Shown: one piece after another, positions 9,097 to 22,474 of the stretch
Numbering within the stretch: the first letter of the stretch is position 1
Layout: the number at the start of each line of letters is the position of its first letter
From: Acidimicrobiales bacterium
GTDB lineage: Bacteria > Actinomycetota > Acidimicrobiia > Acidimicrobiales > Bin134
Direction of reading: 5' to 3'
NCBI GenBank assembly: GCA_965208805.1
Contig: OZ242355.1
Coordinates: 2,760,982-2,824,981, forward strand
Length of the DNA stretch: 64,000 bases
Position numbers and translations under genes: made by a program
The notes under the pieces: generated by a model
The model's database searches: none
What the model was told of the DNA's origin: nothing
What the model saw: only the letters and a program-made list of their open reading frames with translations

Positions 9097-9115
9097 CAAC
9101 TCAGGCCATGCCTTC

Positions 9116-9418
9116 TCAGGGGAGGATGTCGTGGCTGCCGATCCGTAGCCAGATGACATGGCGCTTGCCAGGAGTCTGATGAGGGCCCCAGGCGAAAGTT
9201 GCCCGGCCGTCTGGGGACCATGTCATTTCGTAGACACCGGATGCCCCCTTCACCTTCTTGACGCGCAGACTTGATCGGAACCAGGAGAGACGTCCGTCTT
9301 CCATGTCAGCCAGGTCGGCCACGAATTGCTGCAACCGAGATTCGAAGAGAGTCGTCTGCACCGGGGTGAGCCGTTTGAGATCGCGCAGGAAGGAAGGGTT
9401 CTCGAAGTGTGTCGGCAC
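9116..9418 (-). CDS. RelE/ParE-superfamily-like toxin (copy 1 of a paralogous pair)
   Basis: Frame of ORF 9116..9520. The GTG at 9418 is chosen by alignment with the paralogue at 24489..24797. The conserved C-terminal block is LRVKKVKGASGVYEMTWSPDGRATFAWG...HVIWLRIGSHDILP. The family assignment rests on pattern only. Confidence 0.6.
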   Translation of the reverse strand: MPTHFENPSFLRDLKRLTPVQTTLFESRLQQFVADLADMEDGRLSWFRSSLRVKKVKGASGVYEMTWSPDGRATFAWGPHQTPGKRHVIWLRIGSHDILP

Positions 9419-9440
9419 TCGCCCGGAGTTGCGGAGGCAG

Positions 9441-9644
9441 CTATTGAGAGGACCCGTTTTGCCGCGCTCGCAGTGCGGCGATGAAGTCCTCGGTGCTGGC
9501 GTGAAACTCGCCCTCTTCAAGGTTGGCTGCGGGCCCTTTGCCGGTGTCGGCGTCGATGTCGGCGAGTGTCAGGGTTTCGGGCTGCATTTGCTTGCGCTGC
9601 TTGCGGGCCAAGGGAAGCCAGCGCTTTAGATCCAAAACAGCCAT
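9441..9644 (-). CDS. Putative antitoxin (copy 1)
   Basis: ATG at 9644 preceded by GGAGGA. The 67-aa product is MAVLDLKRWLPLARKQRKQ...STEDFIAALRARQ, and the gene ends 22 nt upstream of the toxin gene. It shows weak but colinear similarity to 24807..24989. No known domain was recognised. Confidence 0.5.
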   Translation of the reverse strand: MAVLDLKRWLPLARKQRKQMQPETLTLADIDADTGKGPAANLEEGEFHASTEDFIAALRARQNGSSQ

Positions 9645-9795
9645 TGCCTGTCCTCCGTGGTCAACGACGTCACTCACTCTACTTGCGTCGTCGCTTCAAA
9701 CCAGCAGGATTGGCGTGTAGGCCATTCAATGGAGTGGCCTTCTGGGAGAGCATTCGAGCAGCGCATGGATTGAGACCCCGTGCTATAGTGATGCT

Positions 9796-9830
9796 GTTCC
9801 GCATTGCGGTACTGGTCCACAGTATGGAAC
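9796..9830. promoter_or_regulatory. Double palindromic operator-like site upstream of the corrinoid methyltransferase operon
   Basis: GTTCCGCATTGCGGTAC-T-GGTCCACAGTATGGAAC, two 17-mers of form GkTCCr-N5-yGGwAC separated by 1 nt, ending 38 nt before the ATG at 9869. It matches the reverse complement of 22440-22474 at 26 of 35 positions. Confidence 0.5.
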
Positions 9831-9868
9831 CCGCCCTGGGGTCCAGCACCACAGAAGGAGTGTGTCGA

Positions 9869-10570
9869 ATGACTGACACGCCCGAGATCGACGACATCGA
9901 TCTGTCGAGTCTGAACGACGAAGACCTGTGCGCGCAGATGCACGACGATCTCTACGACGGCCTGGCCGAGGAGATCGATGAGGGCACCAGAATCCTGCTG
10001 GACCGGGGCTGGGGTGCCGACAAGGTGCTGGACGTGGCGCTGGTGGAGGGGATGCGCATCGTGGGCATCGACTTCCGCGACGGCATCCTGTTCGTGCCCG
10101 AGGTGCTGCTGGCCGCCAACGCCATGAAGGCGGGCATGGCCATCTTGCGCCCGCTTCTGGCCGAGACCGGTGCGGAGCCCATCGGCAGCGTGGTGATCGG
10201 AACGGTCAAGGGCGACATCCACGACATCGGCAAGAACCTGGTGGCCATGATGCTGGAAGGCGCGGGGTTCGAGGTAACCGACCTGGGCATAAACACCGAC
10301 GTGGAGGAGTTCATCGCCGCCCTCGACGAGCACCGGCCCGACATCTTGGGCATGTCGGCGCTGCTCACCACCACCATGCCCTACATGAAGGTGGTCATCG
10401 ACACGCTGGTGGAGAAGAGCCTGCGGGAGGACTTCATCGTGCTGGTGGGCGGCGCCCCCCTCAATGAGGAGTTTGGCGAGGCCATCGGCGCCGACGCCTA
10501 CTGCCGCGACGCCGCCGTCGCCGCGGAAACCGCCAAGGAACTCGTTGCTGCCCGCCGAGCCGCGGTCTGA
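9869..10570 (+). CDS. Cobalamin-binding corrinoid protein of a methyltransferase system (MtgC/MttC-like)
   Basis: ATG at 9869 preceded by GAAGGAG. It has an N-terminal helical B12-binding_2-like region, the DxHxxG base-off motif (GTVKGDIHDIGKNLV), and ...GMSALLTTTM further downstream. Confidence 0.9.
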   Translation: MTDTPEIDDIDLSSLNDEDLCAQMHDDLYDGLAEEIDEGTRILLDRGWGADKVLDVALVEGMRIVGIDFRDGILFVPEVLLAANAMKAGMAILRPLLAETGAEPIGSVVIGTVKGDIHDIGKNLVAMMLEGAGFEVTDLGINTDVEEFIAALDEHRPDILGMSALLTTTMPYMKVVIDTLVEKSLREDFIVLVGGAPLNEEFGEAIGADAYCRDAAVAAETAKELVAARRAAV

Positions 10571-10572
10571 CC

Positions 10573-11181
10573 ATGTCCAAAGTGCTCGTGGTGGCCTGCG
10601 GGGCGCTGGCCAAAGAGTTGCGCCACCTCATCTCGGCCCTCGAGAACGAGGGAGGCGGCCCCGGCATCGACCTCGAGTGCCTGCCGGCCAAGCTGCACAA
10701 CCGCCCGGAGCTGATCCCCGAGGCGGTGCGAGATAGGGTGCGGGCCGCCCGCGGCCGCTACCAGACCATTCTGGTGGGCTACGCCGACTGCGGCACCGGG
10801 GGCCTGCTCGACAAGGTGTGCCGAGAAGAAGGAGTAGAACGCCTTCCCGGCCCCCATTGCTATGAGCTCTATGCCGGGGCTGAAGCGTTCGCCCAACTTC
10901 AAGACCAAGAGTTGGGCACGCTGTACCTCACCGACTATCTGGTGCGGCATTTCGAGCGACTGATTCTGGAGGGGCTGGGCATTCTGGACCACCCCGAGCT
11001 GCAAGACGTCTATTTCAAGAACTACACCCGGCTGGTGTACCTGTCACAAGAGCACGACCCCGATCTGGACCGATTGGCCCGACAAGCGGCAGACCGCCTG
11101 GGGCTGCGCTTCGAGAAGGCGGTCACCGGCTACGGAGGTTTGGTCGATGCGCTGGTAGAGATCCGGGAGCGAGCCGCGTGA
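10573..11181 (+). CDS. DUF1638-domain protein
   Basis: 202 aa, starting 2 nt after the corrinoid protein stop. Its pattern is VVACGALAKELRHL ... CLPAKLHNRPELIP ... ILVGYADCGTGG. By memory this family sits next to corrinoid methyltransferase genes. Confidence 0.7.
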   Translation: MSKVLVVACGALAKELRHLISALENEGGGPGIDLECLPAKLHNRPELIPEAVRDRVRAARGRYQTILVGYADCGTGGLLDKVCREEGVERLPGPHCYELYAGAEAFAQLQDQELGTLYLTDYLVRHFERLILEGLGILDHPELQDVYFKNYTRLVYLSQEHDPDLDRLARQAADRLGLRFEKAVTGYGGLVDALVEIRERAA

Positions 11182-11534
11182 GTCGGCGGCGGGGGAGTAA
11201 CGGCAACCTAGTGGTGATCTGTTGGCGGGACATCCCCGCTCAGGTGAACGCCGGCTCGGGATCCTCAAAAATCCAGCGCATCCTCCCCCGCCGCTTCCAA
11301 CGCGCGATCGACGAAGCCGCCATGGTGGCCGGCAAGACCCAGGCATCGCAGTACGTGGGCGAGTGGCGCCGCAAGGTGATCCCCGGCGACGCCGATGATC
11401 CCGAGGGTGCCGCTTTGCGGGCCGCCGAGGAGCTTGAGGCCGCGTTCCCGCGGGAGCGGCTCAAAGAATTCGTAGCCACCGGGGGCTGGGACCCGGACAA
11501 TGCAACCGTGAGTCCCCAGGAGGCGACAACGTGA
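11178..11534 (+). CDS. Virulence_fact (PF13769)-like small protein
   Basis: 118 aa with a GTGA overlap at both ends. VVICWRDIPAQVNA...RRFQRAIDEAAMVAGKT...YVGEW fits the remembered family signature (WRDIPAQV ... RF..AID.AAM). Confidence 0.6.
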   Translation: MSRRRGSNGNLVVICWRDIPAQVNAGSGSSKIQRILPRRFQRAIDEAAMVAGKTQASQYVGEWRRKVIPGDADDPEGAALRAAEELEAAFPRERLKEFVATGGWDPDNATVSPQEATT

Positions 11535-12433
11535 CCGAAACCGTGCTCAGCTCGGCGACCAAAGAGGTGGTGATCGGTTTCGACCGCCCCTTCGTGATGA
11601 TCGGCGAGCGGATCAACCCCACCGGGCGCAAGCTGCTGACCGAGGAGATGAAGGTCGGCGACTTCAGCCGGGTGGAGGCCGACGCCTTGGCCCAGGTGGC
11701 CGCCGGCGCCCACATGCTGGACGTGAACGCCGGCATCCCGCTGGCCGACGAGCCCGCGCTGCTGGCTCGGGCCATCAAGCTGGTGCAGTCGGTGACCGAC
11801 GTGCCGCTGTCCATCGACTCGTCGATCATCGAGGCGCTGGAGGCGGGCATCGCGGTGTACGACGGCAAGCCGCTGATCAACTCGGTCACCGGCGAGGAAG
11901 AAGTGCTGGAGCGGGTGCTTCCCCTGGTGGCCCGCCACAGCGCCGCGGTGGTGGCCATCTCCAACGACGAGACCGGCATCAGCGAAGATCCCGACGTCCG
12001 CTTCAAAGTGGCCCGCAAGATTGTGGAGCGGGCCTCCGACCACGGCATCCCCCGCTCCGATGTGGTGGTGGACCCACTGGTCATGCCCATCGGGGCCATG
12101 GGCACCGCGGGCCAGCAGGTGTTCCGCCTGGTTCGGCGCATCCGGGAAGAGCTCGGGGTGAACACCACCTGCGGGGCCAGCAACGTGAGCTTCGGCCTGC
12201 CCAACCGCCACGCGATCACCGGCACGTTCTTGGCCATGGCCATCGGCGCCGGGATGACCTCGGCCATCATGAATCCCTTGCACGCCGAGGTAAAGCAGGC
12301 GGTGATGGCCGCCGATGTGCTGGCCGGGCACGACCGCGACTGCATGGCGTGGATCGCCGAGAACCGGGACCCGACCGCGGCCGGGGAGGGGGCGGCCCGC
12401 CGTCGAGGAGGACGTCGCCGGGCCGCAGTATGA
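11531..12433 (+). CDS. Methyltetrahydrofolate:corrinoid methyltransferase (pterin-binding domain, MtgA/AcsE/MetH-like)
   Basis: 300 aa. FVMIGERINPTGRKLL ... AGAHMLDVNAG ... PLSIDSS ... LINSV ... GASNVSFGLPNR are the pterin-binding (DHPS-like) barrel signatures. Confidence 0.85.
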   Translation: MTETVLSSATKEVVIGFDRPFVMIGERINPTGRKLLTEEMKVGDFSRVEADALAQVAAGAHMLDVNAGIPLADEPALLARAIKLVQSVTDVPLSIDSSIIEALEAGIAVYDGKPLINSVTGEEEVLERVLPLVARHSAAVVAISNDETGISEDPDVRFKVARKIVERASDHGIPRSDVVVDPLVMPIGAMGTAGQQVFRLVRRIREELGVNTTCGASNVSFGLPNRHAITGTFLAMAIGAGMTSAIMNPLHAEVKQAVMAADVLAGHDRDCMAWIAENRDPTAAGEGAARRRGGRRRAAV

Positions 12434-14499
12434 GTTCCGAGCACCGTGTGGTGTTCACCCCCAGCGGCATCGAGGCAACCGCCGCCGAGGGGTCGACGGT
12501 GCTGGACGCGGCTCGCACCGCCGGGGTGGACATCGACTCGGTGTGTGGGGGCCGAGGGCTGTGCGGCCGCTGCCAGGTGTCCCCCAGCACCGGCCAGTTC
12601 GCCAAGTGGGGGCTGACGAGCACTGACGACGCCCTCTCCGCGCCCGGCCCCACCGAGCTCGACTACCGAGGGCGCCGCCCGTTGGAAGCAGGCCACCGGC
12701 TGAGCTGTCAGGCCGCCGTGCTGGGCGACGTGGTGATCGACGTCCCGCCCCAGAGCCAAGTACACAGCCCGGTGGTGCGAAAGGCGGTCGATCTGGGCGA
12801 GATCACCCTCGACCCGGTGGTGACCCTCCACTATCTGGAACTGCCCATCGCCGTGCTGGGCGACGAGATCTCCGATGCCGAACGGCTGGTCGGCGCTTTG
12901 GACGACGACTGGGACCTGTCCGACGTTGAAGTTCCCGCTTCAGCACTGCCCGCCTTGTCTTCGGCGATCGCACAGGGGAACGGGGCGGTCACCGCCGTGG
13001 TCCACACCCGACGGCAGTACTCAACACATGCCGAAGACGGCGAGGTGGTCGAGCGACGGGTGCTCACGGTGCGACCGGGGTATTCCGATGCGGAATTTGG
13101 CGTGGCGATGGATGTGGGCTCGACCACCGTGGCCGGCTACCTGCTGGATTTGGCCACTGGTGAGGTGGCTGCCACCGCAGGGCGCATGAACCCGCAGATC
13201 CGTTTCGGCGAGGACCTGATGAGCCGGGTGTCCTACGCCATGTTGAACCCCGGCGGCACCGCCGAGCTGACCACGGCGGTGCGGTCGGCCATCGACAACG
13301 TGATCGGCGAGCTCTGTGAGGCCGCGGCCATCGACCGAACCGACGTCTGCGATCTCGTGATGGTGGGAAATCCGATCATGCACCACCTGGTGCTGGGCAT
13401 CGACCCCACCCCGCTGGGCGCAGCCCCGTTCACATTGGCCATGCGCGACGGGGTGTGGGCCAACGCCAGCGACATCGGCGTGGACCTGCCCGGCGCATCC
13501 CTCTATGTGGGGCCGTGCATCGCCGGCCACGTGGGGGCCGACGCGGCCGCGGCCCTGCTGGCCGAAGGGCCGCACCGATCGCCCCAAGCGCAGCTTCTGG
13601 TGGACGTGGGCACCAATGCCGAGATCGTGCTGGGCGACGGCCAGAAAGTGTGGGCGGCGTCGAGTCCTACTGGGCCCGCATTCGAAGGCGCCCAGATCAG
13701 CTGCGGACAAAGAGCCACCGCCGGGGCAATCGAAGGGGTGCGGATCGACCCCGCCACGCTGGAGCCCCGTTTCAAGGTGATCGGCTGCGATCTGTGGTCC
13801 GACGACCCCGGCTTTGAAGACGCGTTGGGCTCTCTGGAGGTGTCCGGGCTGTGCGGTTCGGGAATCATCGAGGTGATTGCGGAGATGTTTTTGGTCGGGA
13901 TCATCGACCACCGAGGAGTCATCGGCGGTGAGTTGGCCGAGCGCAGCCCCCGCATCATCGCCGACGGTCGGACGTATTCCTATGTGCTCCAAACCCAGCC
14001 GGTTCCGCTTTCGGTGACCCAGAACGACGTGCGAGCAGTGCAGTTGGCCAAGGCGGCGCTGCGGGCCGGCATAGACCTGCTCTTCGAGCACGCCGGGATC
14101 GCCGAGGTGGCCGATGTGAGGCTGGCCGGAGCGTTCGGCGCCCACATCAGTCCGGTTCACGCCATGGTGCTGGGTTTGGTGCCCGACGGGCCGGTAGAGG
14201 GGGTCAAAGGGGTGGGCAACGCTTCGGGGGCGGGCGCGGCCCGGATGCTGGTGTCGGGATCACAGCGGGCCGAGACCGAGCACGCCGCCCGGGAAGTGGT
14301 CAAGATCGAGACCGCTACCGAGGCCCGTTTCCAGGAGTTGTTCGTGGCCGCCATGTCGCTGCCCCATGAGACCGCCCCCACCACCCACTTGGAGCAGGCG
14401 GTGGATTTGCCCCCGAGGTCGACAGCCGATAGCGAGACTGCCGGACCCAAGCGGCGACGGACGGGCCGTCAACGAAATCAGATGCAGGAGCAACGATGA
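12430..14499 (+). CDS. Reductive activator of corrinoid protein (2Fe-2S ferredoxin + ASKHA/DUF4445 ATPase, RACo/RamA-like function)
   Basis: The ATG at 12430 overlaps the upstream stop (ATGA). It has an N-terminal plant-type ferredoxin cysteine cluster (CGGRGLCGRCQV). The long C-terminal region with MDVGSTTVAGYL and VDVGTNAEIVL phosphate-binding motifs is typical of ASKHA corrinoid activators. Confidence 0.85.
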   Translation: MSSEHRVVFTPSGIEATAAEGSTVLDAARTAGVDIDSVCGGRGLCGRCQVSPSTGQFAKWGLTSTDDALSAPGPTELDYRGRRPLEAGHRLSCQAAVLGDVVIDVPPQSQVHSPVVRKAVDLGEITLDPVVTLHYLELPIAVLGDEISDAERLVGALDDDWDLSDVEVPASALPALSSAIAQGNGAVTAVVHTRRQYSTHAEDGEVVERRVLTVRPGYSDAEFGVAMDVGSTTVAGYLLDLATGEVAATAGRMNPQIRFGEDLMSRVSYAMLNPGGTAELTTAVRSAIDNVIGELCEAAAIDRTDVCDLVMVGNPIMHHLVLGIDPTPLGAAPFTLAMRDGVWANASDIGVDLPGASLYVGPCIAGHVGADAAAALLAEGPHRSPQAQLLVDVGTNAEIVLGDGQKVWAASSPTGPAFEGAQISCGQRATAGAIEGVRIDPATLEPRFKVIGCDLWSDDPGFEDALGSLEVSGLCGSGIIEVIAEMFLVGIIDHRGVIGGELAERSPRIIADGRTYSYVLQTQPVPLSVTQNDVRAVQLAKAALRAGIDLLFEHAGIAEVADVRLAGAFGAHISPVHAMVLGLVPDGPVEGVKGVGNASGAGAARMLVSGSQRAETEHAAREVVKIETATEARFQELFVAAMSLPHETAPTTHLEQAVDLPPRSTADSETAGPKRRRTGRQRNQMQEQR

Positions 14500-16031
14500 G
14501 CGAGCGACAAGGAAGGCGGGGCGGCGGACGGGCCGGTCGCCAGGCGGCCCGGGCAGCCAGCCAAGTATTGGCCGCCCCGGTGTTGGAGCGGCGCTTGCCG
14601 CCGGTGGAGATCATCGACGAGGCCGGGCTGGCCCAGATCGAGGAGAACGCCGAGACCATCCTGGCCGAGGTGGGCGTCGCCTTCCAGGACTTCCCCGACG
14701 CGCTCGACCTGTGGCGGGATGCTGGGGCCGATGTCGACGGCGAGCTGGTGCGGTTCCCCCGGGGGCTGTGCCGCCAGATCGTGACCCAAAGTGCCCCCGC
14801 CACCTACACCCAGCACGCCCGCAATCCCGAGCGCAGCGTGAGCATCGGGGGCAACACCACCGTTTTCGTCCCCAACTACGGCTCCCCGTTCGTCACCGAC
14901 CTGGACCAGGGGCGGCGCTACGCCACCCTGGCCGACTTCGAGAACGTGGTGAAGCTGGCCTACCGGCTCCCCCACCTGCACCACAGCGGGGGCACGGTGT
15001 GCGAGCCGGTGGACGTGCCGGTGGAGGTGCGCCACCTCGACATGGTGTACGCCCACCTCCGCTACAGCGACAAGCCCTTCATGGGCTCGGTGACTAGCGC
15101 CGAGCGGGCTGCCGACTCGGTGGAGCTGGCCCGCATCGCCTTCGGCGGCGACCTGGCCGACCGCACGGTGATGACCTCACTGATCAACGCCTCCTCCCCC
15201 ATGCGCTGGGACGCCACCATGCTGGGCGCGGCCACGGTGTACGCCCGGGCCAACCAGGCCAGCATCATCAGCCCGTTCATCCTGGCCGGGGCCATGTCGC
15301 CGGTGACGGTGGCCGGCCTGTGCGCCCAAGCCCTGGCCGAGGCGCTGTCGGGCATGGCCTACCTTCAACTGGTGCGGCCCGGGTCGCCCGTTGTCTTCGG
15401 GACATTCGCCTCATCGATGTCGATGGCCACCGGCGCTCCCACTTTCGGCACCCCCGAGGCGGCCCAGGCCATCTTCGTCATGGCCGCGTTGGCCCGGCGC
15501 TGCGGGGTGCCATTCCGCTCCGGCGGCCAGCTCACCGCATCCAAGGCCGCTGATGCCCAAGCGGCCTACGAGTCGGCCCACACCCTGTTGCCCACCGTGC
15601 AGGCCGGGGTCAACTTCGTGCTCCACGCCGCCGGATGGCTGGAGGGGGGCCTGACCCTGGGCTACGAGAAGCTCATCATGGACGCCGACCAGCTCGGCGC
15701 TATGGAGGTCCACGCCCGGGGGGTGGATTTGAGCGACAACGGCCAGGCCATGGAGGCGTTTCGCACCAACACCCACGGCGACCACTTCTTGGGCAACGCC
15801 CACACCCTGGCCAACTTCGAGACCGCCTTCTGGCGCTCAGAGATAGCCGACAACAACAGCTACGAGCAGTGGTCCGAAGAGGGCTCCCTCACCGCAGCCC
15901 AGCGGGCCAACACCCGCTGGAAAGAACTGCTGGCCGACTACCAGCCACCCCCCATCGACGACGCCATCCACGCCGAGCTGCAAGATTTCCTGGCCCGCCG
16001 CAAAACCGAGATCGCCAGCGAGCAAGCATGA
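14496..16031 (+). CDS. MttB-superfamily (trimethylamine methyltransferase family) methyltransferase, non-pyrrolysine type
   Basis: 511 aa, ATGA-coupled to the activator gene. It shows MttB-like sequence throughout (e.g. NYGSPFVTDLD.GRRYATLADFEN..KLA, SPMRWD, FTGAPTFGTPEAAQ-like blocks). The ORF is uninterrupted with no in-frame TAG. Confidence 0.9.
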   Translation: MSERQGRRGGGRAGRQAARAASQVLAAPVLERRLPPVEIIDEAGLAQIEENAETILAEVGVAFQDFPDALDLWRDAGADVDGELVRFPRGLCRQIVTQSAPATYTQHARNPERSVSIGGNTTVFVPNYGSPFVTDLDQGRRYATLADFENVVKLAYRLPHLHHSGGTVCEPVDVPVEVRHLDMVYAHLRYSDKPFMGSVTSAERAADSVELARIAFGGDLADRTVMTSLINASSPMRWDATMLGAATVYARANQASIISPFILAGAMSPVTVAGLCAQALAEALSGMAYLQLVRPGSPVVFGTFASSMSMATGAPTFGTPEAAQAIFVMAALARRCGVPFRSGGQLTASKAADAQAAYESAHTLLPTVQAGVNFVLHAAGWLEGGLTLGYEKLIMDADQLGAMEVHARGVDLSDNGQAMEAFRTNTHGDHFLGNAHTLANFETAFWRSEIADNNSYEQWSEEGSLTAAQRANTRWKELLADYQPPPIDDAIHAELQDFLARRKTEIASEQA

Positions 16032-16051
16032 CCTGAACAAAGGAGCGGACC

Positions 16052-16486
16052 ATGACCGATTCGTTGACCGGACGGTGTATGTGCGGGGCCGTGACCTATG
16101 TGATCGACGGCCCGGCCCGGGACGTATGGAACTGCCATTGTGTGCGGTGTCGGCAGTGGACGGGGCACTTCACCGCGGCCACCGGCTGCCGACACGACCA
16201 CCTTCGCCTGATCACCGAAGACACGCTGGAGTGGTACCACCCCGAAGAATGGCCCGATGTGGCCTACGGTTTCTGCCGACGCTGCGGGAGCTCGCTGTTC
16301 TGGAAGGTGGTCGCCGTGCCTCCCGGAGAGTCGGAGCAACAACTAGACCACATTGCGATCTGGGCCGGAACCCTCGACGCACCCACTGGGCTGTCGACTG
16401 AGTTGGCGATATACGCCGAGGAGGCCTCCGACTACCACACGCTCGACACCAGCATCGAGACCCACCCCCGCGACCAGCCGAGTTAA
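16052..16486 (+). CDS. GFA (glutathione-dependent formaldehyde-activating)/CENP-V family protein
   Basis: 144 aa with AAAGGAG upstream. The zinc-cysteine pattern is GRCMCGAV...CHCVRCRQWTG...FCRRCGSSLFW. Confidence 0.8.
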   Translation: MTDSLTGRCMCGAVTYVIDGPARDVWNCHCVRCRQWTGHFTAATGCRHDHLRLITEDTLEWYHPEEWPDVAYGFCRRCGSSLFWKVVAVPPGESEQQLDHIAIWAGTLDAPTGLSTELAIYAEEASDYHTLDTSIETHPRDQPS

Positions 16487-16503
16487 GTGATCGCTGTTGA
16501 TCG

Positions 16504-16794
16504 TCAAGCAGAAACGACCTCTTCAGACACTTCGGAGCGACCGTATCGCTGGCGAGCGGCTTCCCCTGAAGTGCCCAGCATCGCACCAATTGCGGCCCAT
16601 GAATGCCCATCACGGCGAGCCAGTGCTACGGCTTCACCCAGCTGCCGCTCAGCTTCGGCCCGTGCTCGAAATGCGGCATAAACCGTCCTGAGCGCCGTGG
16701 CATCTTTCACGTTGGCCTCAACAGGCTCATGCTGCTCGAACCGTGTAGCCAGTTCTTCAGCCTGGTCCAGTATTTCCTGCATTGTTCGCGGCAT
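16504..16794 (-). CDS. Small HTH protein, putative antitoxin
   Basis: 96 aa. It has a C-terminal HTH-like segment (GHSWAAIGAMLGTSGEAARQRYG) and overlaps the upstream small ORF 16757..17023 on the same strand. Confidence 0.45.
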   Translation of the reverse strand: MPRTMQEILDQAEELATRFEQHEPVEANVKDATALRTVYAAFRARAEAERQLGEAVALARRDGHSWAAIGAMLGTSGEAARQRYGRSEVSEEVVSA

Positions 16795-17023
16795 TACCTA
16801 ATCCAAGATGCCTCGGGCGGGCTGGCATCGCATGAACGATGGCCGGTCCGCTGTCACTGTCAATCACACCCACCTCAAGTAGATTCCCAGAGAGGTCAGG
16901 GCCAACAAACATGGTGGAGCCCTCGTCGAGGCTCTCAATTCGAATCGGATTGCGAAGCACGTGGATCATGCTGTCTTCTCGAATTCCATGCCGCCTGGCA
17001 CTAGGTGCTACTACAGGAATCAT
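16757..17023 (-). CDS. Small protein, putative BrnT-like toxin (tentative)
   Basis: 88 aa. ARRHGIREDSMIHVLRNP ... LLEVGVIDSDSGPAIVHAMPARPRHL loosely recalls BrnT/DUF497 (KHGV..E ... IISAR). The toxin-first gene order matches BrnTA. This is a weak, pattern-only call. Confidence 0.4.
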   Translation of the reverse strand: MIPVVAPSARRHGIREDSMIHVLRNPIRIESLDEGSTMFVGPDLSGNLLEVGVIDSDSGPAIVHAMPARPRHLGLGNAANNAGNTGPG

Positions 17024-17195
17024 AGTCTAGCAAGTTAGCTTGTGATCCATGCCGCTAGGACCTCCGGATGTGGACAAGGGGCAGAGAACCGACAGGCTCC
17101 TCGCATCGATCCCAAGTGGATTCCCAGTAGTACTATTTCAGTATATTACAATATTTTTCAATATAGCAACATTCCAGCAGAAGAATATTTTCGCT

Positions 17196-17212
17196 GTTCC
17201 GTATCGTGGAAC
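17196..17212. promoter_or_regulatory. Single palindromic operator-like site upstream of the IclR gene
   Basis: GTTCCGTATCGTGGAAC, the same GkTCCr-N5-yGGwAC form as the sites at 9796 and 22440. It ends 28 nt before the ATG at 17241 and follows an unusually AT-rich tract. Confidence 0.45.
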
Positions 17213-17240
17213 GGTTTTGTTTGCGGGGTAGTCTGCGGAT

Positions 17241-17984
17241 ATGGCGGTGCAGTCGGTTGAGCGGGCGTTTTTGCTTCTGCGAACCCTGGCGCAGGGGCCA
17301 TTGGGGGTAACCGAACTCGCCGATCACGTGGAGCTGCCCAAGAGCACGGTGGCCCGGTTGCTGTCCGCGCTCGAGGCTGAGAACGCGGTGGAACAAGTCG
17401 AGGCCGGCGGGGCCTACCGAGTGGGGCCCGGTCTGATCGACATTGCCGGCGCAGTCCCCGCGGGCCGCAACCTCATAACCGCCGCCCGCCCCCACCTATT
17501 GGAGTTGACCGAAGCGACGGGGGAAGCGGCCGGCCTGTCGATCATCGACAACGGCCGGGCCCATTACCTGGACCAAACCCAGATCTCCTCCGACATCCAA
17601 ATCAGAGACTGGACCGGCGAGTACACCCCGCTGCATGTGGTGGCCGCGGGGCTGGTCATGCTGGCCCACCTCCCCGCCGATCAGCAGGATGAATTCCTTG
17701 CCCAACCGCTTGAGGTCTGCACCCAGTGGACCGTTGTCGACCCCGACGCGATACGAGATCGCCTGGTCCAGATCCGCAGTCTGGGATATGCCTGGGTTTA
17801 TGAAGAATTTGTGGAGGACCTGAACTCGGTGGCCGCTCCCGTGCTCGACGCGGACGGACAACCGCTCGCCGCCCTCCACGTCCACGGACCGGCCTACCGC
17901 TTCCCCGATCCCGACCTGGCCCACGACCACGGCCTGGCTGTGGTGGCCGCCGCCAATCGCCTCGCCGCCCAGCTCTCCGCCTAA
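17241..17984 (+). CDS. IclR-family transcriptional regulator
   Basis: 247 aa. It has an N-terminal wHTH (SVERAFLLLRTLAQGPLGVTELADHVELPKSTVARLLSALE) followed by an IclR effector-binding domain pattern. Confidence 0.9.
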   Translation: MAVQSVERAFLLLRTLAQGPLGVTELADHVELPKSTVARLLSALEAENAVEQVEAGGAYRVGPGLIDIAGAVPAGRNLITAARPHLLELTEATGEAAGLSIIDNGRAHYLDQTQISSDIQIRDWTGEYTPLHVVAAGLVMLAHLPADQQDEFLAQPLEVCTQWTVVDPDAIRDRLVQIRSLGYAWVYEEFVEDLNSVAAPVLDADGQPLAALHVHGPAYRFPDPDLAHDHGLAVVAAANRLAAQLSA

Positions 17985-18040
17985 CTGCTGTCTCCTGCAA
18001 CAAGGGCTGCTGAACCCACCGGCAGGCAAAAGACCCGAGA

Positions 18041-19021
18041 TCAGGCTCGGCGGCGCTTGATCTCCTCGGAGATGGCGGGGATGACCTCGTGGAGGTCGGC
18101 GATGACGGCCCAGTCGGCCTTGACCACCATGTTGGCTTCGGGGTCGATGTTGATGGCCAGGATGTGCTTGCTGGCCTTGGCCCCCACCCAGTGCTGGATT
18201 GCGCCGGAGATGCCCGAGGCGATGTAGATCTCAGGGGTGATGCGGGTGCCGGTCTGGCCCACTTGGTCGGAGTGGGGGCGCCAGCCGTTGTTGGTCACTG
18301 CCCGGCTGCAACCCACCCGGCCGCCCAGCATGGCGGCCAGCTCCTCCAGGGGAGCGAATGCCTCGGCCGATCCCACTCCCCGGCCGCCGCCGATCACCAC
18401 CGGAGCAGTCGACAGGGTGACCCCGGCTTCCAGCACCACCCGGTCTTTGACCATGGTTCGGGCCAGCGACGGGTCCAAGTCGACCTCGACCGCTTGGGCG
18501 ACGGGCGCATTGGCGGCCTCAGCCCGCTCAGCGGCCAGCGTGTGCAGGCCGGTGGTCAACAGGGGCCGCTCGGAGTCCAGCTGGGCATCTTCCAGTAGTG
18601 ACCCGCCCCACTGCTGGCGGGTCATGGTCCACTCCCCCGCTGTGCCGTCGGGGTCTACTTCGAGACAGTTGGCCACCATCGGAAGATCGAGGCGGGCGGC
18701 CACCTGGGCCATGACCTCGTTGCCTCGCTCGCTGCCTCCAGCCAACACCGCCGCCGGATTGAGCTGTCGAATCATCTCGGCCGCGGCCTCGCCCCAGGCC
18801 TCGGGGCCGAAATCGGCCAGCACGTCGCTGACCACGGTGTAAACCGCCTCAGCGCCGAAGGCCCCGGCTTCGGCCACCAGATCGGCGTCGTCGCCGCCGA
18901 TCAGCGCAGCATGCAGCGGCACTCCCATCTGGGCGGCCAGGCCGCGCCCGAAGGTCAGCGCCTCCCGGGCGGCCTCGTCCATGGTGCCCCGGTCGTGCTC
19001 CAGCACCACCAGCAGCATCAC
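18041..19021 (-). CDS. etfA: Electron transfer flavoprotein, alpha subunit
   Basis: 326 aa. The C-terminal FAD-binding signature is PEIYIASGISGAIQHWVGAKASKHILAINIDPEA. It overlaps etfB by 4 nt. Confidence 0.9.
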   Translation of the reverse strand: MMLLVVLEHDRGTMDEAAREALTFGRGLAAQMGVPLHAALIGGDDADLVAEAGAFGAEAVYTVVSDVLADFGPEAWGEAAAEMIRQLNPAAVLAGGSERGNEVMAQVAARLDLPMVANCLEVDPDGTAGEWTMTRQQWGGSLLEDAQLDSERPLLTTGLHTLAAERAEAANAPVAQAVEVDLDPSLARTMVKDRVVLEAGVTLSTAPVVIGGGRGVGSAEAFAPLEELAAMLGGRVGCSRAVTNNGWRPHSDQVGQTGTRITPEIYIASGISGAIQHWVGAKASKHILAINIDPEANMVVKADWAVIADLHEVIPAISEEIKRRRA

Positions 19022-19794
19022 AGCACACCCAACTCTTCGAGCACGTCCACCACTGCGGCGGCTGCCTCGGGGCTGTTGCCCAAGAGCTCCGTCTCGGTGA
19101 CCGTTTCCCGGGGCCTGTGCAACCGCACCAGCGACTGCCCGCCGGGCTGGGCGTCGGAGTTCAACTCGGCGATCTCCAGCTTCTTGGACGCCAGCCGTCC
19201 CCGCATGGTCGGATACCGAGGCAGGTTGATGCCCTCCTTGACCCCGACGGCCGCGGGCATGGGCAGCTCGTAGACCTCAAACCCGCCGTCGATTTCCCTT
19301 CGGGCCCGAACCACGCCGCCGTCGTTCTCGGCGTCCACCTCGATGCCCTTGATGCCGTTGACAATGGGGCGGCCCAGGGCGTAGGCCACCCGCACCCCCA
19401 CTTGAAAGCCCCCCGAGTCGGCTGACTCGTTGCCGAACACCAAAAGGTCGAAGGGGCCCTCGGCGGCCTCCAAGCCCTGGATGGCCTCGGTGAGCGCGGC
19501 GGCGGTGCGCTGGGGGTCCCAGGCCGAGCCGTCGGTGGCCACCAGCACGCCGTGATGGGCCCCCACCGATGCGGCATAGCGCAGCTGATCGGCGGCCTCC
19601 GAGGGTCCGAGGGTCAGCACCGTCACCTCGCCACCGTGGCGCTCGGCGAGCTGCACTGCCTCTTCTACACCGCACTCCTCATGGGGGCTGGTGGCAAAGC
19701 CCAGGTGGGTAGCGTCCACGGCCAAGCCATCGGCGGTCACGTTGATCTTGGCCCCCGGTGCTGCCACCCGCTTCACACAGCACAAGATCCTCAT
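19018..19794 (-). CDS. etfB: Electron transfer flavoprotein, beta subunit
   Basis: 258 aa. MRILCCVKRV... and LLVFGNESADSGGFQVG are typical EtfB blocks. It lies directly downstream of the dehydrogenase gene. Confidence 0.9.
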   Translation of the reverse strand: MRILCCVKRVAAPGAKINVTADGLAVDATHLGFATSPHEECGVEEAVQLAERHGGEVTVLTLGPSEAADQLRYAASVGAHHGVLVATDGSAWDPQRTAAALTEAIQGLEAAEGPFDLLVFGNESADSGGFQVGVRVAYALGRPIVNGIKGIEVDAENDGGVVRARREIDGGFEVYELPMPAAVGVKEGINLPRYPTMRGRLASKKLEIAELNSDAQPGGQSLVRLHRPRETVTETELLGNSPEAAAAVVDVLEELGVL

Positions 19795-19798
19795 GGCA

Positions 19799-22330
19799 TC
19801 AGCTCCTCAGACGGGAGTCGTCGGGATCGAACACCGCGCCGGTGCTGGCCACCTTCACCGGGAACAGCTCATTCATGTACATCACCTGGAGGTCGGTGCC
19901 CGGCTGGGCCAACTCGGCGGGGAGGTAGGCCATCAGCAGGTGCTTGCCCACCGACGGCCCCGGCCCCGCGGTGGTCACCCGCGACACCCGCCCGTGGGAG
20001 TCGGTGATCCGCTGGCCGTCCTGAGTCAGGATCGGCTCGTTGCCCCCCTGCATGTAGCGCTTGCGGCCCTGGCCGTCGGTCAAGTCCTCCACGGTGAGCA
20101 CGCACATCGACACCTCGGGGTCGCCCAACTCCCGGGCGGCCAGGTAGGGCTCCTTGCCGATGAACGGCGCGGCCTTCACCTTGGGCCGGGCCAGGCCGGC
20201 CTCCAGCGGGTTGTACTCGCTCTCCAGTTCGGCCCCCATGAGCCGGTAGCCCTTCTCCAGGCGTCCGGAGGTGCCGTACACCCCGCCGCCGGTGGGGCGC
20301 AGCCCGTAGTCGGCCCCCACCTCCATGAGGGCATCCCACAGCACCGGGCCGTCGTCCCAGGCGGCGTAGATCTCCCAGCCGGTGTCGCCCACATAGGAGA
20401 TGCGGAACAGCACAGCCTCAATGGTGCGACCCCCGCAGTTCAGCTCCACGTCCACCAGCGAGCCGTAGGGCGATCCGGCCTGGCTGAGGTCTTGACTGGT
20501 AAGCGCCCCGATCACGTGGGGGGCGTTGGGCCCCCACACCCCAAGGGTGGTGACATGGTCGGTGATGTTGGCGAAGCTCACCGAGCCATCAGTGGGCATG
20601 TGACGACGGGCCCAGAACTCGTCGCGGCCGCCGTCGAACACGCCGGTCACGATGCGCACCCGGTCTGTGCCCATCCGCATCATGGTCAGATCGGAGTGGA
20701 ACCCACCGTCGGGGGTCAGCCACGGGGTGTAGATACTGCGGCCCACCGGCACGTCCACCTTGTTCACCGCCAGATAGTCGGCGTAGGCCACCGCGCCGGG
20801 CCCGGTCAGCTCGAAAATCTGGAAGGCGCTCAAGTCCACCATTCCGCAGTTCTCCCGCAGGTTGAGGTGCTCGGCAATGGTGATGGGGCTCCACCACCGG
20901 GCGTCCCACTCCACCTCCCGGCCCTCCACCTCGTAGCGGTCCACCAGATCGGCGTTCGACTCGAACCACTGGGGCCGCTCCCAGGTGCGGGCCTGGAAGA
21001 AATCGGCCCCCAGATCCTGCTGGCGGGAGAAGTAGGGGCTCACCCGGAGGTTGCGGCGGCTCTCCCACTGCTCTTGGGGATGGACGATGCCGTAGGTCTT
21101 GTTGAAGTGCTCTGCTGATCGAGCCCAGATGTGGTCGTCGCCCCGCTCCTCGGGATAGAAGCGGGACACATCCGCGCCGTGGACATCGATCACCCGGGGA
21201 TAGCCGAAGGTCATCCACTCGGCCACCACCTGGGCCATGCCCGGCCCCTCCTTCACCCAGATGGCTGCGGCCGACCACAGGTTGCGGACCTCGGGCAGCT
21301 CCCCCAGGCACGGCATGGCGTCGGGGGTGAGCGACAGCAGCCCGTTGATGGCGTACTTGATCTCGGCGTCGCCCAGCATGTCCATGAGGTCGATGGCCTG
21401 CTCCATCTGGAGGTCGAAGTCGTCGGGGGTGAACGGCATCTCGGTGGGTGAGAGCGCGGCCTCCTCGTTGGAGGGGATCTCGTCGGGGTGGTGGAAGATG
21501 GGCCGGTGGGCGTACGACCCCACCTCCATCGACCCGGCCGACTGGCGCTCGTAGCAGAAGGTGTCCATGTCCCGCACGATGGGATAGCCGATCTCGCTGT
21601 TGGTCTCGGCCAGGATGTCGAGCGGGCCGACGTCGGCCATCTGATGCACAGCGGGAACCAGCGGGATGTAGGCATCGGCCATGTTGGCCACCCTGTTCGA
21701 CCACACGCCGCAGGCGATCACCACGTACTCGGTCTCGATAGTGCCCTTGTCGGTGACCACCGCTTTGACGGTGCGGTCTCCGGGGTTGGGGCCGTCCTCG
21801 GTGATGATGTCGAGCACCTCGGTATTGGCCGCCACATGGCAGCCCCCGTTCACCGCCACATTGCGCATCTGAGTGCCGGTCTCCAGCGAATCCACCACCG
21901 ACACCGTGGGACAGTAGAAGCCCTCCAAAACGATGTCGGTGTTGACGAACGGCACCAGTTCCTTGACCTCCTCGGGGGTCAGCAGGTGGGCCTCTATACC
22001 CCACGCGGTGGCCGAGGTCATGCGCCGTTTGAGCTCGTCGACGCGCTCATGCGTGCGGGCCACCTCGACGCCGCCGGAGTCCACCGAGAGCCCCAGGTCG
22101 CGGTATTGGTTGGCGCTCTGCTCCCCCAGCAGGCACATCTCCTTGTTGTGGTCCACCGGGAAGATGAAGTTGGAGGCGTGGCCGGTGGAACCGCCGGGAT
22201 TGGGCAACGGGCCCTTGTCCAGCAGGACCAGATCGGTCCAGCCCAGCTTGCTCAGGTGTCCGACCAGGCAGTTGCCCACGATTCCCGCGCCGATAACAAC
22301 GCACTTGGCCTTTTCGGGGACCTCAGCCAT
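19799..22330 (-). CDS. FAD-dependent dimethylglycine/sarcosine dehydrogenase-like oxidoreductase with C-terminal GcvT (folate-binding) domain, paralogue 1
   Basis: ATG at 22330 preceded by GGAGGCAGGAC. It has the dinucleotide fold KCVVIGAGIVG and the C-terminal aminomethyltransferase-like block FRISYVGDTGWEIY. 843 aa from this start. Confidence 0.85.
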   Translation of the reverse strand: MAEVPEKAKCVVIGAGIVGNCLVGHLSKLGWTDLVLLDKGPLPNPGGSTGHASNFIFPVDHNKEMCLLGEQSANQYRDLGLSVDSGGVEVARTHERVDELKRRMTSATAWGIEAHLLTPEEVKELVPFVNTDIVLEGFYCPTVSVVDSLETGTQMRNVAVNGGCHVAANTEVLDIITEDGPNPGDRTVKAVVTDKGTIETEYVVIACGVWSNRVANMADAYIPLVPAVHQMADVGPLDILAETNSEIGYPIVRDMDTFCYERQSAGSMEVGSYAHRPIFHHPDEIPSNEEAALSPTEMPFTPDDFDLQMEQAIDLMDMLGDAEIKYAINGLLSLTPDAMPCLGELPEVRNLWSAAAIWVKEGPGMAQVVAEWMTFGYPRVIDVHGADVSRFYPEERGDDHIWARSAEHFNKTYGIVHPQEQWESRRNLRVSPYFSRQQDLGADFFQARTWERPQWFESNADLVDRYEVEGREVEWDARWWSPITIAEHLNLRENCGMVDLSAFQIFELTGPGAVAYADYLAVNKVDVPVGRSIYTPWLTPDGGFHSDLTMMRMGTDRVRIVTGVFDGGRDEFWARRHMPTDGSVSFANITDHVTTLGVWGPNAPHVIGALTSQDLSQAGSPYGSLVDVELNCGGRTIEAVLFRISYVGDTGWEIYAAWDDGPVLWDALMEVGADYGLRPTGGGVYGTSGRLEKGYRLMGAELESEYNPLEAGLARPKVKAAPFIGKEPYLAARELGDPEVSMCVLTVEDLTDGQGRKRYMQGGNEPILTQDGQRITDSHGRVSRVTTAGPGPSVGKHLLMAYLPAELAQPGTDLQVMYMNELFPVKVASTGAVFDPDDSRLRS

Positions 22331-22439
22331 GTCCTGCCTCCATCGCTTCCACCGTGCGGACCTTGCTCGACTTATCGTCAATCATGATGCCCAACTCGCT
22401 TCCTCAACAGGCCGTGCTGCCTGCAAGTATTGCACTTCT

Positions 22440-22474
22440 GGTCCGTATTATGGTACAGTTCCGTTATGCGGAAC
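22440..22474. promoter_or_regulatory. Double palindromic operator-like site in the dehydrogenase / MetF-like divergent promoter
   Basis: GGTCCGTATTATGGTAC-A-GTTCCGTTATGCGGAAC, two 17-mers with a 1-nt spacer. The second is a perfect 6+5+6 palindrome and contains the ATG at 22466. Its reverse complement aligns 26/35 with 9796-9830. Confidence 0.5.

What the first reader, a model, noticed from the sequence alone, without database searches (positions are those of the whole stretch)
9796..22474. Shared 17-bp palindrome (GkTCCr-N5-yGGwAC) at three promoters: candidate operator set for the IclR regulator
Five instances of one palindromic 17-mer occur, all in promoter regions of functionally linked genes.
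- 9796-9812 GTTCCGCATTGCGGTAC and 9814-9830 GGTCCACAGTATGGAAC, upstream of the corrinoid methyltransferase operon.
- 17196-17212 GTTCCGTATCGTGGAAC, 28 nt upstream of the iclR-family gene.
- 22440-22456 GGTCCGTATTATGGTAC and 22458-22474 GTTCCGTTATGCGGAAC, between the dehydrogenase-etfBA operon and the MetF-like gene.

The two double sites have identical geometry (17+1+17). They align 26/35 when one is reverse-complemented, so each is oriented the same way relative to its operon (mtgC on +, dehydrogenase on -). A single site at the regulator's own promoter fits autoregulation. I found no copy upstream of the second MttB operon.
Basis: partly seen in the sequence, partly recalled or inferred. Interest (0 to 1): 0.6.

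Follow-up and report, generated by a model that had tools for sequence, protein, structure and literature searches.

The report
IclR operators of a betaine-demethylation regulon
The repeated 17-base palindromes are real and are almost certainly the binding sites of the neighbouring IclR-type regulator, which switches the genes for glycine betaine and dimethylglycine breakdown in a sponge-associated actinobacterium; it is a well-supported but fairly ordinary new example of a known kind of switch.

Summary
All five palindromes are present exactly as described. They are far beyond chance. A weight matrix made from them puts them at ranks 1-5 of 3.8 million genome positions. Rank 6 is an unseen sixth site, about 56 kb downstream and outside the window. 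It again forms a 17+1+17 pair, upstream of a serA-like/DUF1015 operon.

In 80 related Acidimicrobiales loci, 74 carry the motif (184 sites against 6 for a control matrix). Paired sites are almost always 18 bp apart. The sites follow the promoters when gene order changes.

Same-genus genomes without the regulator lack the sites, including at serA. The regulator's recognition helix is invariant. The consensus GTTCCRYAWTRYGGAAC equals the published IclR-family "GTT-11-AAC" consensus, and the tandem spacing is typical of the family.

The sites overlap or directly follow predicted -10 boxes, so repression relieved by a pathway metabolite is the likely mode. The effector is unknown.

The orientation argument is weak. 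This is a new member of a known kind, of moderate interest. No binding or expression data could be obtained.

The parts
9781..9789 (+). Predicted extended -10 box (TGcTATAGT) of the mtgC-operon promoter. It ends 6 nt before the first operator.
   Evidence: Sequence. In ten relatives, conservation starts at CGTGCTAYAGT and everything upstream is unrelated. This is a prediction; no transcription start data are available.
9796..9812 (.). Operator O1 of the mtgC operon, GTTCCGCATTGCGGTAC (23.7 bits). Predicted position about +1 to +17.
   Evidence: Identical in the same-genus loci L004-L019 that hold this promoter.
9814..9830 (.). Operator O2 of the mtgC operon, GGTCCACAGTATGGAAC (21.7 bits), 18 bp centre-to-centre from O1.
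9869..16486 (+). Regulated operon. Genes in order: corrinoid protein (MtgC-like), DUF1638, a small ORF, methyl-THF:corrinoid methyltransferase (pterin-binding), RACo-type reductive activase, non-Pyl MttB-family methyltransferase, GFA-family protein.
   Evidence: Pfam, NCBIfam, synteny.
17196..17212 (.). Single operator at the iclR promoter, GTTCCGTATCGTGGAAC (23.1 bits). Predicted position -45 to -29, overlapping the -35 region.
   Evidence: It is the only conserved island besides the -10 box and the ATG in the alignment of 22 upstream regions (A1). Across the loci, 43 sites lie upstream of iclR, with a median of 37 nt from site centre to start codon.
17229..17234 (+). Predicted -10 box TAGTCT of iclR, 6 nt before the ATG. 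This implies a leaderless mRNA.
   Evidence: A TAnnnT box is conserved at fixed spacing in alignment A1. This is a prediction only.
17241..17984 (+). IclR-family regulator gene (247 aa; HTH_IclR plus IclR_C domains). It is the proposed binder of all the sites.
   Evidence: Pfam. NCBIfam best hit is BhcR, far below its cut-off. Recognition helix LPKSTVARLL is invariant in 81 orthologues. It is one of only 3 IclR genes in the genome.
18041..22330 (-). Regulated operon: DMGDH-like dehydrogenase (DAO, FAO_M, GCV_T domains), etfB, etfA.
   Evidence: Pfam. It is adjacent to the regulator in most of the 80 loci, including nearly all full-length ones.
22440..22456 (.). Operator GGTCCGTATTATGGTAC (22.9 bits), on the DMGDH-proximal side. 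Its centre TATTAT is also a candidate -10 box for the metF-like gene.
   Evidence: Invariant in the same-genus loci that hold this promoter.
22458..22474 (.). Operator GTTCCGTTATGCGGAAC (23.6 bits). It contains the first in-frame ATG (22466) of the metF-like ORF.
22484..22489 (-). Predicted -10 box TAGACT of the DMGDH operon. It places the operator pair at about +4 to +38.
   Evidence: Conserved in L009 and L019. An equivalent GGTAnnnT box lies 2-3 nt before the pair in Aldehydirespirator-type loci (L026, L044, L045, L052, L055, L078). This is a prediction only.
22466..23350 (+). Regulated metF-like (MTHFR-family) gene. Its start codon is uncertain: ATG 22466 or TTG 22430.
   Evidence: Weak MTHFR matches. 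A MetF2-type role is taken from PMC12478193.

Best explanation
The palindromes are the operators of the adjacent IclR-family transcription factor (window 17241-17984).

**Binding mode (inferred).** A dimer recognises each 17-bp site, consensus GTTCCRYAWTRYGGAAC. The 17+1+17 pairs, 18 bp centre to centre, would bind a tetramer.

**Regulon in this genome.**
- The corrinoid/MttB betaine methyltransferase operon.
- The dimethylglycine-dehydrogenase-like/etfBA operon.
- The divergent metF-like gene.
- A serA-like/DUF1015 (proposed serine kinase)/amidohydrolase operon about 56 kb away.
- The regulator's own gene.

In related genera the same regulator and motif also cover formate-THF ligase and a formate-dehydrogenase-like gene. 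The unit therefore controls methyl-group removal from betaine, oxidation of the C1 units, and assimilation of the glycine/serine carbon.

**Mode of action (inferred).** The sites overlap or lie just downstream of the predicted -10 boxes, so the protein most likely represses. A pathway metabolite would release it; dimethylglycine or glycine betaine are the best guesses.

**What is shown and what is inferred.** Shown: the sites, their statistics, their conservation and their co-occurrence with the regulator. Inferred: binding, repression, promoter positions and the effector.
For: **Specificity in the genome.**
- The six highest-scoring positions of 3.8 million all lie at four promoter regions. 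There is a clean gap from 20.9 bits to a 17.3-bit hit inside a coding region.

**Conservation in relatives.**
- 184 sites of 16 bits or more occur in 80 related loci (1.47 Mb), against 6 for the backward control matrix. 74 of 80 loci are positive.
- Pair spacing is 18 bp in 120 of 125 counts.
- Upstream of iclR only the palindrome, a -10 box and the ATG are conserved.
- The serA-like pair is kept at a fixed distance in five other genomes while its flanks diverge.
- The site moves with gene order. In Aldehydirespirator-type loci the pair lies between fhs-metF and DMGDH-etfBA-iclR, and there is no separate iclR site.

**Link to this regulator.**
- All 10 same-genus genomes with the regulator have the site cluster. 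The two genomes that are at least 90% complete and lack the regulator have none, and their serA orthologues lack the operator.
- The recognition helix is invariant while the rest of the protein drops to 52% identity.

**Fit to the family.**
- The consensus equals the IclR group-1 subtype GTTYCRYW3RYGRAAC. Tandem sites 18-22 nt apart are reported for 94 IclR orthologous groups (PMC8222616).
- No Rfam family matches at the sites.
Against: - No binding, expression or transcription-start data exist.
- The promoter boxes are predictions from TAnnnT matches.
- At the iclR promoter the site centre (about -37) would also suit a class II activator.
- Three full-length related loci (L027, L065, L079) have the regulator but no site within 10 kb.
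- In L062, L076 and L077 the DMGDH promoter carries a GntR/FCD regulator and another palindrome instead. The link between regulator and target is therefore not universal.
- An 18-bp spacing is at the low end of the published 18-22 range.
- Within the own genus the mtgC leader is conserved as a whole, so that promoter adds little footprinting power.
Confidence: 0.85

Rival explanations
1. The sites are IclR-type operators, but the protein acts as an activator, or as a dual regulator like GenR or PcaU. It would recruit RNA polymerase when the effector is bound, and would not repress.
For: Many catabolic IclR-family members are activators (PobR, PcaU, GenR; table cited in PMC8222616). At the iclR promoter the site centre is about -37. 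In L059/L063/L072 the pair lies just upstream of a TGTAGCCT -10-like box on the DMGDH side.
Against: At the mtgC promoter (extended -10 TGcTATAGT, 6 nt before O1), the pair lies at or downstream of the predicted start. The same holds at DMGDH promoters of two clades (GGTAnnnT, 2-9 nt before the pair). This is a repressor position. All of it rests on predicted promoters.
Confidence: 0.15
2. The palindromes are bound by a different regulator. This could be one of the two other IclR paralogues or an unrelated factor, and the adjacency to this iclR gene would be coincidental.
For: The IclR-family consensus is shared by many paralogous groups (PMC8222616). The genome has two more IclR genes.
Against: - Sites and this orthologue travel together across 74 loci and three gene orders.
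- The sites vanish in same-genus genomes lacking this orthologue.
- The autoregulatory site stays at a fixed distance from this gene.
- The paralogues have different recognition helices and lie more than 2.5 Mb away.
Confidence: 0.05
3. The palindromes act as RNA hairpins (terminator, attenuator or processing sites) and are not protein-binding DNA.
For: - The simple scan flags 17193-17215 plus TTTGTTTG as terminator-like.
- Three of the four predicted promoters would transcribe their sites.
- Inner G-T positions could pair as G-U in RNA.
Against: - The T-run after the iclR site is not conserved in any relative.
- The iclR site lies upstream of the predicted transcription start.
- The half-sites are conserved in sequence and do not covary.
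- No Rfam match.
- The motif equals a known protein-binding consensus.
Confidence: 0.03

Closest known systems
IclR-family group-1 'GTT-11-AAC' operators and tandem sites (comparative genomics of Suvorova & Gelfand 2021, PMC8222616)
   Same: - The consensus is identical (GTTYCRYW3RYGRAAC).
- It is a palindrome read by a dimer.
- Tandem sites fall in the 18-22 nt range, interpreted as tetramer binding.
- Sites lie mostly 20-80 nt upstream of start codons.
- Autoregulation is seen, and the subtype is most frequent in Actinobacteria.
- That paper's COG table lists betaine transporters, sarcosine oxidase subunits, FolD, PurU, MetF, FTHFS and EtfAB in consecutive rows. This hints that a similar regulog was already predicted for some group.
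   Different: - Neither betaine nor dimethylglycine is mentioned in the main text.
- The stored supplement is cut, so I could not tell which orthologous group holds those rows.
- No Acidimicrobiia, no MttB/corrinoid system and no DUF1015 were found in the supplement text.
- Here the spacing is fixed at 18 bp, the lower edge of their range.
GenR of Corynebacterium glutamicum (IclR-type; sites ATTCC-N7(5)-GGAAT)
   Same: An actinobacterial IclR regulator with TTCC...GGAA half-sites at the same spacing, several sites per regulon, and autoregulation (as cited in PMC8222616).
   Different: GenR controls gentisate/3-hydroxybenzoate catabolism and both activates and represses. The outer bases differ (A/T against G/C). 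It is not an orthologue: the best NCBIfam hit here is BhcR at 150 bits, against a cut-off of 350.
TtgV of Pseudomonas putida (IclR family; tetramer-operator crystal structure 2xro)
   Same: It is a repressor tetramer that binds cooperatively to two adjacent pseudo-palindromes overlapping the promoter. It is the second-best solved-structure match (E 3.9e-18).
   Different: TtgV controls an efflux pump and responds to aromatic solvents. Its operator sequence and spacing were not compared here.
GbdR/SouR (AraC family) of Pseudomonas aeruginosa, and the GntR/FCD repressors predicted for actinobacterial betaine/sarcosine/C1 genes
   Same: Both play the same physiological role, which is induction of glycine betaine, dimethylglycine and sarcosine catabolic genes. 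GntR/FCD regulators with a TGATATATCA-type palindrome replace the IclR site at the DMGDH promoter in L062, L076 and L077.
   Different: The protein families and operator types differ. GbdR is an activator (my own knowledge; Wargo 2008 appears in the reference list of PMC12478193).
Aerobic MtgBCD glycine betaine demethylase with MetF2 (Ruegeria pomeroyi, Phaeobacter inhibens)
   Same: This is the regulated pathway. An MttB-family methyltransferase, a corrinoid protein and a pterin methyltransferase are present, with a MetF paralogue oxidising methyl-THF (PMC12478193).
   Different: Those papers describe no transcription factor. They report cobalamin riboswitch control of gbcAB (bioRxiv 10.64898/2025.12.19.695462). 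The substrate of the MttB protein here is not proven: its MtgC-type corrinoid protein scores 204 bits against a cut-off of 370.

Membership tests
IclR-family transcription factor (the proposed binder) | N-terminal HTH_IclR domain (PF09339) plus C-terminal IclR effector domain (PF01614), both above the Pfam cut-offs | tested here: met
   PF01614 scores 114.2 bits (cut-off 24) and PF09339 scores 47.1 bits (cut-off 22). Solved IclR-family structures match across the full length.
IclR-family group-1 operator, GTT-11-AAC subtype (PMC8222616) | 17-bp palindrome fitting GTTYCRYW3RYGRAAC | tested here: met
   The count matrix of 46 distinct sites gives GTTCCRYAWTRYGGAAC. The published consensus was read. 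In the window, some outer positions are G/T or A/T variants (GkTCC...GGwAC).
IclR-family group-1 operator, GTT-11-AAC subtype (PMC8222616) | Tandem palindromes 18-22 nt between centres (tetramer binding) | tested here: met
   18 nt in 120 of 125 spacing counts across the loci. All three pairs of this genome follow it.
IclR-family group-1 operator, GTT-11-AAC subtype (PMC8222616) | Located in the promoter region, with the site centre typically 20-80 nt upstream of a start codon, often including the regulator's own gene | tested here: met
   Site centres lie 37 nt (iclR), 47/65 nt (mtgC) and 71/89 nt (serA-like) upstream of the start codons. They are 118/136 nt from DMGDH, but overlap the metF-like start.
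IclR-family group-1 operator, GTT-11-AAC subtype (PMC8222616) | Co-occurrence of site and regulator across genomes | tested here: met
   74 of 80 loci are positive. 10 of 10 same-genus genomes with the regulator have the sites, and 2 of 2 without it lack them.
IclR-family group-1 operator, GTT-11-AAC subtype (PMC8222616) | Physical binding of the protein to the site, modulated by a small molecule | not testable with these tools
   This needs EMSA or footprinting.
Named IclR orthologues (BhcR, PcaR/PcaU/PobR, IclR, KdgR, AllR) | Score above the NCBIfam equivalog cut-off | tested here: not met
   The best hit is BhcR at 150.3 bits against a cut-off of 350. All others score lower. It is therefore not an orthologue of any named regulator.

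The most novel reading that the evidence does not exclude
The regulon reveals a complete, co-regulated route by which sponge-associated Acidimicrobiia turn glycine betaine into central metabolites. B12-dependent demethylation and DMG dehydrogenase would give glycine and methylene-THF, which would be joined to serine. Serine would then be drained to 3-phosphoglycerate by a reversed phosphorylated pathway, using the DUF1015 'SerBK' serine kinase and a SerA-like dehydrogenase. All of this would be under one IclR repressor that senses a methylated glycine. This would be independent genomic support for the recently proposed catabolic role of DUF1015, and the first transcription factor assigned to an aerobic MtgBCD-type system.
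Probability: 0.3. Interest if true: 0.55.

Novelty: new member of a known kind. Interest (0 to 1): 0.35.

Why it matters
- **A testable regulon in an uncultured group.** The organisms are Candidatus Poriferisocius and Aldehydirespirator-type Acidimicrobiales from sponges and corals. Glycine betaine is a major host-derived substrate for them.
- **A first candidate regulator.** I found no publication naming a transcription factor for a corrinoid/MttB-type betaine demethylase.
- **A functional link for DUF1015.** The regulon ties a SerA-like dehydrogenase and DUF1015 to betaine and one-carbon catabolism. This bears on the proposed serine-kinase role of DUF1015.
- **Practical use.** The operator and regulator could serve as a betaine- or dimethylglycine-responsive switch.
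- **Limits.** The motif, spacing and logic are textbook IclR, so nothing here changes how the family is understood.

Tried and rejected
- **Rfam scan of 9000-24000 at E up to 1.** It found only a tRNA and a sub-threshold PYLIS hit inside mttB, and nothing at the sites.
- **Terminator reading of the iclR site.** The simple scan flags it. I rejected it because the T-run is not conserved.
- **The 17.3-bit hit at genome position 2103804.** It lies inside an epoxide-hydrolase-like coding region, so it is noise.
- **Genome-wide coding versus intergenic split.** My crude longest-ORF caller wrongly labelled the true sites as coding, because longest ORFs over-extend N-termini (9566-10570 and 22430-23350). 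I used it only for background hits, of which about three quarters fall in ORFs, as chance predicts.
- **Orientation claim.** The match is 26/35 against 23/35, and the serA pair is reversed, so I did not rely on it.
- **Matching regulog in Suvorova & Gelfand's Table S3.** I tried to identify which orthologous group holds the betaine/C1 rows. The stored file is cut to 49 columns, so this is unresolved.
- **Literature searches.** Searches combining IclR with betaine and dimethylglycine, and MttB with a regulator, gave no relevant paper.
- **proS as a target in Aldehydirespiratoraceae-type loci.** I considered it, but the site is closer to the start of the divergent Sec-containing FDH-like gene, which fits the regulon better.


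Full report
**1. Observation**

The five 17-mers are present exactly as listed: 9796, 9814, 17196, 22440 and 22458.
- The pattern GKTCCN7GGWAC has 7 strand matches in the window against 0.89 expected. None of 100 shuffles reached 7. With one mismatch allowed the signal dissolves into noise (19 found, 18 expected), so the exact pattern is what is special.
- The window is C1:2760982-2824981 of a 3.81-Mb, 64% GC, single-contig genome.
- Genome-wide the loose pattern hits 26 positions. Five are in this 13-kb stretch.
- A symmetrised weight matrix of the five sites scores them 21.7-23.7 bits. Only one other genome position exceeds 18 bits, and the next best is 17.3 bits.
- Matrices built while leaving out each promoter in turn still place the left-out sites in the genome's top 6.
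- The 17.3-bit hit lies inside an epoxide-hydrolase-like coding region.

**2. Genes around the sites**

Pfam and NCBIfam give the following.

| Window coordinates | Strand | Product |
|---|---|---|
| 9869-10570 | + | corrinoid protein (MtgC-like, below the NCBIfam cut-off) |
| 10573-11181 | + | DUF1638 |
| 11531-12433 | + | methyl-THF:corrinoid methyltransferase |
| 12349-14499 | + | RACo activase |
| 14496-16031 | + | MttB-family methyltransferase |
| 16052-16486 | + | GFA-family protein |
| 17241-17984 | + | IclR-family regulator |
| 18041-19794 | - | etfA, etfB |
| 19799-22330 | - | DAO/FAO_M/GCV_T dehydrogenase (dimethylglycine or sarcosine dehydrogenase type) |
| about 22466-23350 | + | weak MTHFR-family gene |

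All five sites lie between homology-supported gene starts.

**3. A fourth promoter outside the window**

- The sixth-best genome position is 2838820 (GTTCCGCTATGCGGTAC, 20.9 bits). It was not used to build the matrix.
- It has a weaker partner exactly 18 bp upstream (GTATCGTAGAGCGGAAC, 14.2 bits). This makes a third 17+1+17 pair.
- The pair ends 62 nt before the ATG of a SerA-like D-2-hydroxyacid dehydrogenase. That gene is followed by a DUF1015 gene and an amidohydrolase_2 gene.
- The pair is kept at the same distance from the ATG in five other same-genus genomes, while the flanks diverge.

**4. Relatives**

A search with the regulator returned 80 loci from Acidimicrobiales MAGs. These are Candidatus Poriferisocius, Candidatus Aldehydirespirator and Aldehydirespiratoraceae, with 52-95% identity to the regulator.
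- The window-derived matrix finds 184 sites of 16 bits or more in these 1.47 Mb, against 6 for a backward control matrix. 74 of 80 loci are positive.
- Three of the six negative loci are short or truncated contigs. Three are full length (L027, L065, L079).
- The regulator sits beside DMGDH-etfBA in most loci, including nearly all full-length ones.

Three layouts occur.
- (a) The window's layout, in the own genus.
- (b) fhs-metF on one strand and DMGDH-etfB-etfA-iclR on the other, with the double site between them and no separate iclR site (L022-L055).
- (c) A single site before iclR, a double site between DMGDH and an fhs-metF-DUF1015 operon, and a site between proS and a selenocysteine-containing formate-dehydrogenase-like gene (L057-L074).

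The motif therefore follows the promoters and not the coordinates.
- In the alignment of 22 iclR upstream regions (mean identity 32%), only three things are conserved. These are the palindrome, a TAnnnT box 16 nt downstream of it, and the ATG 6 nt after that box.
- Paired sites are 18 bp apart in 120 of 125 counts. The consensus of 46 distinct sites is GTTCCRYAWTRYGGAAC.

**5. Link to this regulator**

- The genome has only three IclR-family genes. The other two are more than 2.5 Mb away and have different recognition helices.
- The helix LPKSTVARLL of the local protein is invariant in 81 orthologues.
- Among same-genus genomes, the 10 that have the orthologue all show the site cluster.
- G005 and G008 (95% and 90% complete) lack the orthologue. 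They show 0 and 2 stray pattern hits. Their serA-like orthologues have no site within the 1.5 kb upstream.
- G012 is only 68% complete. It has the serA site, but the regulator is not in its assembly.

**6. Comparison with what is known**

Suvorova and Gelfand (PMC8222616) describe the IclR-family group-1 consensus GKTYCRYW3-4RYGRAMC.
- Its subtype GTTYCRYW3RYGRAAC covers 54 orthologous groups and is commonest in Actinobacteria.
- They report tandem sites 18-22 nt between centres in 94 groups, read as tetramer binding.
- Site centres lie mostly 20-80 nt upstream of start codons.

The present motif and geometry fit on every point. GenR of Corynebacterium glutamicum (ATTCC-N7-GGAAT) is the nearest experimentally studied operator type in their table.

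The regulator is not an orthologue of any named one. Its best NCBIfam hit is BhcR at 150 bits against a cut-off of 350.

The papers on aerobic MtgBCD betaine demethylation describe MetF2 and a cobalamin riboswitch, but no transcription factor. Searches for IclR together with betaine and dimethylglycine found nothing relevant.

The COG table of PMC8222616 lists betaine transporters, sarcosine oxidase subunits, FolD, PurU, MetF, FTHFS and EtfAB in consecutive rows. A similar IclR regulog may therefore already have been predicted in another group. The stored file is cut, and I could not identify it. Earlier notes of this scan report comparable IclR operator pairs in other actinobacteria.

**7. 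Mechanism (inferred)**

| Promoter | Predicted -10 box | Predicted operator position |
|---|---|---|
| mtgC | extended box TGcTATAGT, ending 6 nt before O1 | pair at about +1 to +35 |
| DMGDH | TAGACT; GGTAnnnT in the Aldehydirespirator type | box 2-9 nt before the pair |
| metF-like | TATTAT, at the centre of one operator | first in-frame ATG inside the other operator |
| serA-like | conserved TATCGT, inside the weaker operator | overlaps the box |
| iclR | TAGTCT, 6 nt before the ATG | site at about -45 to -29 on an apparently leaderless mRNA |

These positions favour repression. A pathway metabolite would presumably relieve it. Dimethylglycine is the most economical guess, because DMGDH is the target shared by most clades. 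None of this has been measured.

**8. Regulon logic**

- Betaine is demethylated to dimethylglycine by the MttB/corrinoid system.
- Dimethylglycine is oxidised by the ETF-linked dehydrogenase.
- Methyl-THF is oxidised by the MetF paralogue, by analogy with MetF2 (PMC12478193).
- In relatives, FTHFS and an FDH-like enzyme finish the C1 oxidation.
- DUF1015 has recently been proposed to be a serine kinase ('SerBK') that supports serine utilisation together with SerC and SerA in reverse (bioRxiv 10.1101/2024.10.14.618325).

This last point gives a reason for the serA-like/DUF1015 operon to belong to the regulon. Glycine plus methylene-THF gives serine, which would then be drained to 3-phosphoglycerate. 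This step is inference.

**9. Exceptions and limits**

- L062, L076 and L077 carry a GntR/FCD regulator and a TGATATATCA-type palindrome at the DMGDH promoter instead.
- Within the own genus the whole mtgC leader is conserved, so it adds little footprinting power.
- The argument that both pairs share one orientation is weak: 26/35 against 23/35, and the serA pair is reversed.
- No site lies near the second MttB/dehydrogenase cluster at 43-51 kb.

**10. Verdict**

This is a clean, conserved IclR operator set and regulon. It is a new member of a known kind, and I rate its interest as moderate.

Noticed in passing
Genome C1:2838802-2838836 (about 14 kb beyond the window end; L001 9803-9837), with genes at L001 9900-13616: A third 17+1+17 operator pair lies upstream of a serA-like dehydrogenase, a DUF1015 ('SerBK', proposed serine kinase) gene and an amidohydrolase_2 operon. 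The pair is conserved in five same-genus genomes. It is absent from the two genomes that lack the regulator.
   Followed up: yes
window 16487-17195: In relatives the GFA gene ends about 70 nt before iclR. In this genome about 680 bp are inserted between them: orf 16603-17004 with no Pfam match, plus a strikingly AT-rich tract at 17130-17195. The operator and -10 box are left intact.
   Followed up: partly
window 22325-22393 (- strand): A possible 17-21-codon upstream ORF ends with TGA overlapping the DMGDH start (ATGGCTGA). It stays open in the window and in L009, L019 and L020 despite sequence changes. It may be only a by-product of the conserved ribosome-binding site.
   Followed up: no
window 22430-22474: The only in-frame start codons of the metF-like ORF are TTG 22430 and ATG 22466. 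Both lie at or inside the operators, and the ATG is part of the palindrome centre in all same-genus loci. The true start is unresolved.
   Followed up: partly
L063 5305-7338 (- strand); the same gene in L059 and neighbouring loci: A molybdopterin oxidoreductase (formate-dehydrogenase-like) is complete only if an in-frame TGA is read as selenocysteine (motif CNRT-U-HAPS). An IclR-type site lies at its start, divergent from proS.
   Followed up: partly
L062 16440-17099, with equivalents in L076 and L077: A GntR/FCD regulator and the palindrome TGATACACAAGTGATATATCA replace the IclR operator at the DMGDH promoter in some Aldehydirespiratoraceae. The same genes are thus under a different regulator family.
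   Followed up: partly
window 43274-51044 (- strand): A second cluster holds an MttB paralogue, an acyl-CoA dehydrogenase and two more DAO/GCV_T dehydrogenases. It has no IclR-type site (no hit of 9 bits or more), so it must be controlled otherwise.
   Followed up: partly
Genome C1:239480: A 15.9-bit IclR-like palindrome, GTTCCGCTTACCGGAAC, lies 2.5 kb downstream of another IclR paralogue (236023-236967). It may belong to that paralogue's own regulon.
   Followed up: no
window 15531-15630: A sub-threshold Rfam match to the mttB pyrrolysine insertion element (PYLIS_3, 33 bits against 38) lies inside the non-Pyl mttB gene. It is probably only a coding-sequence resemblance.
   Followed up: no
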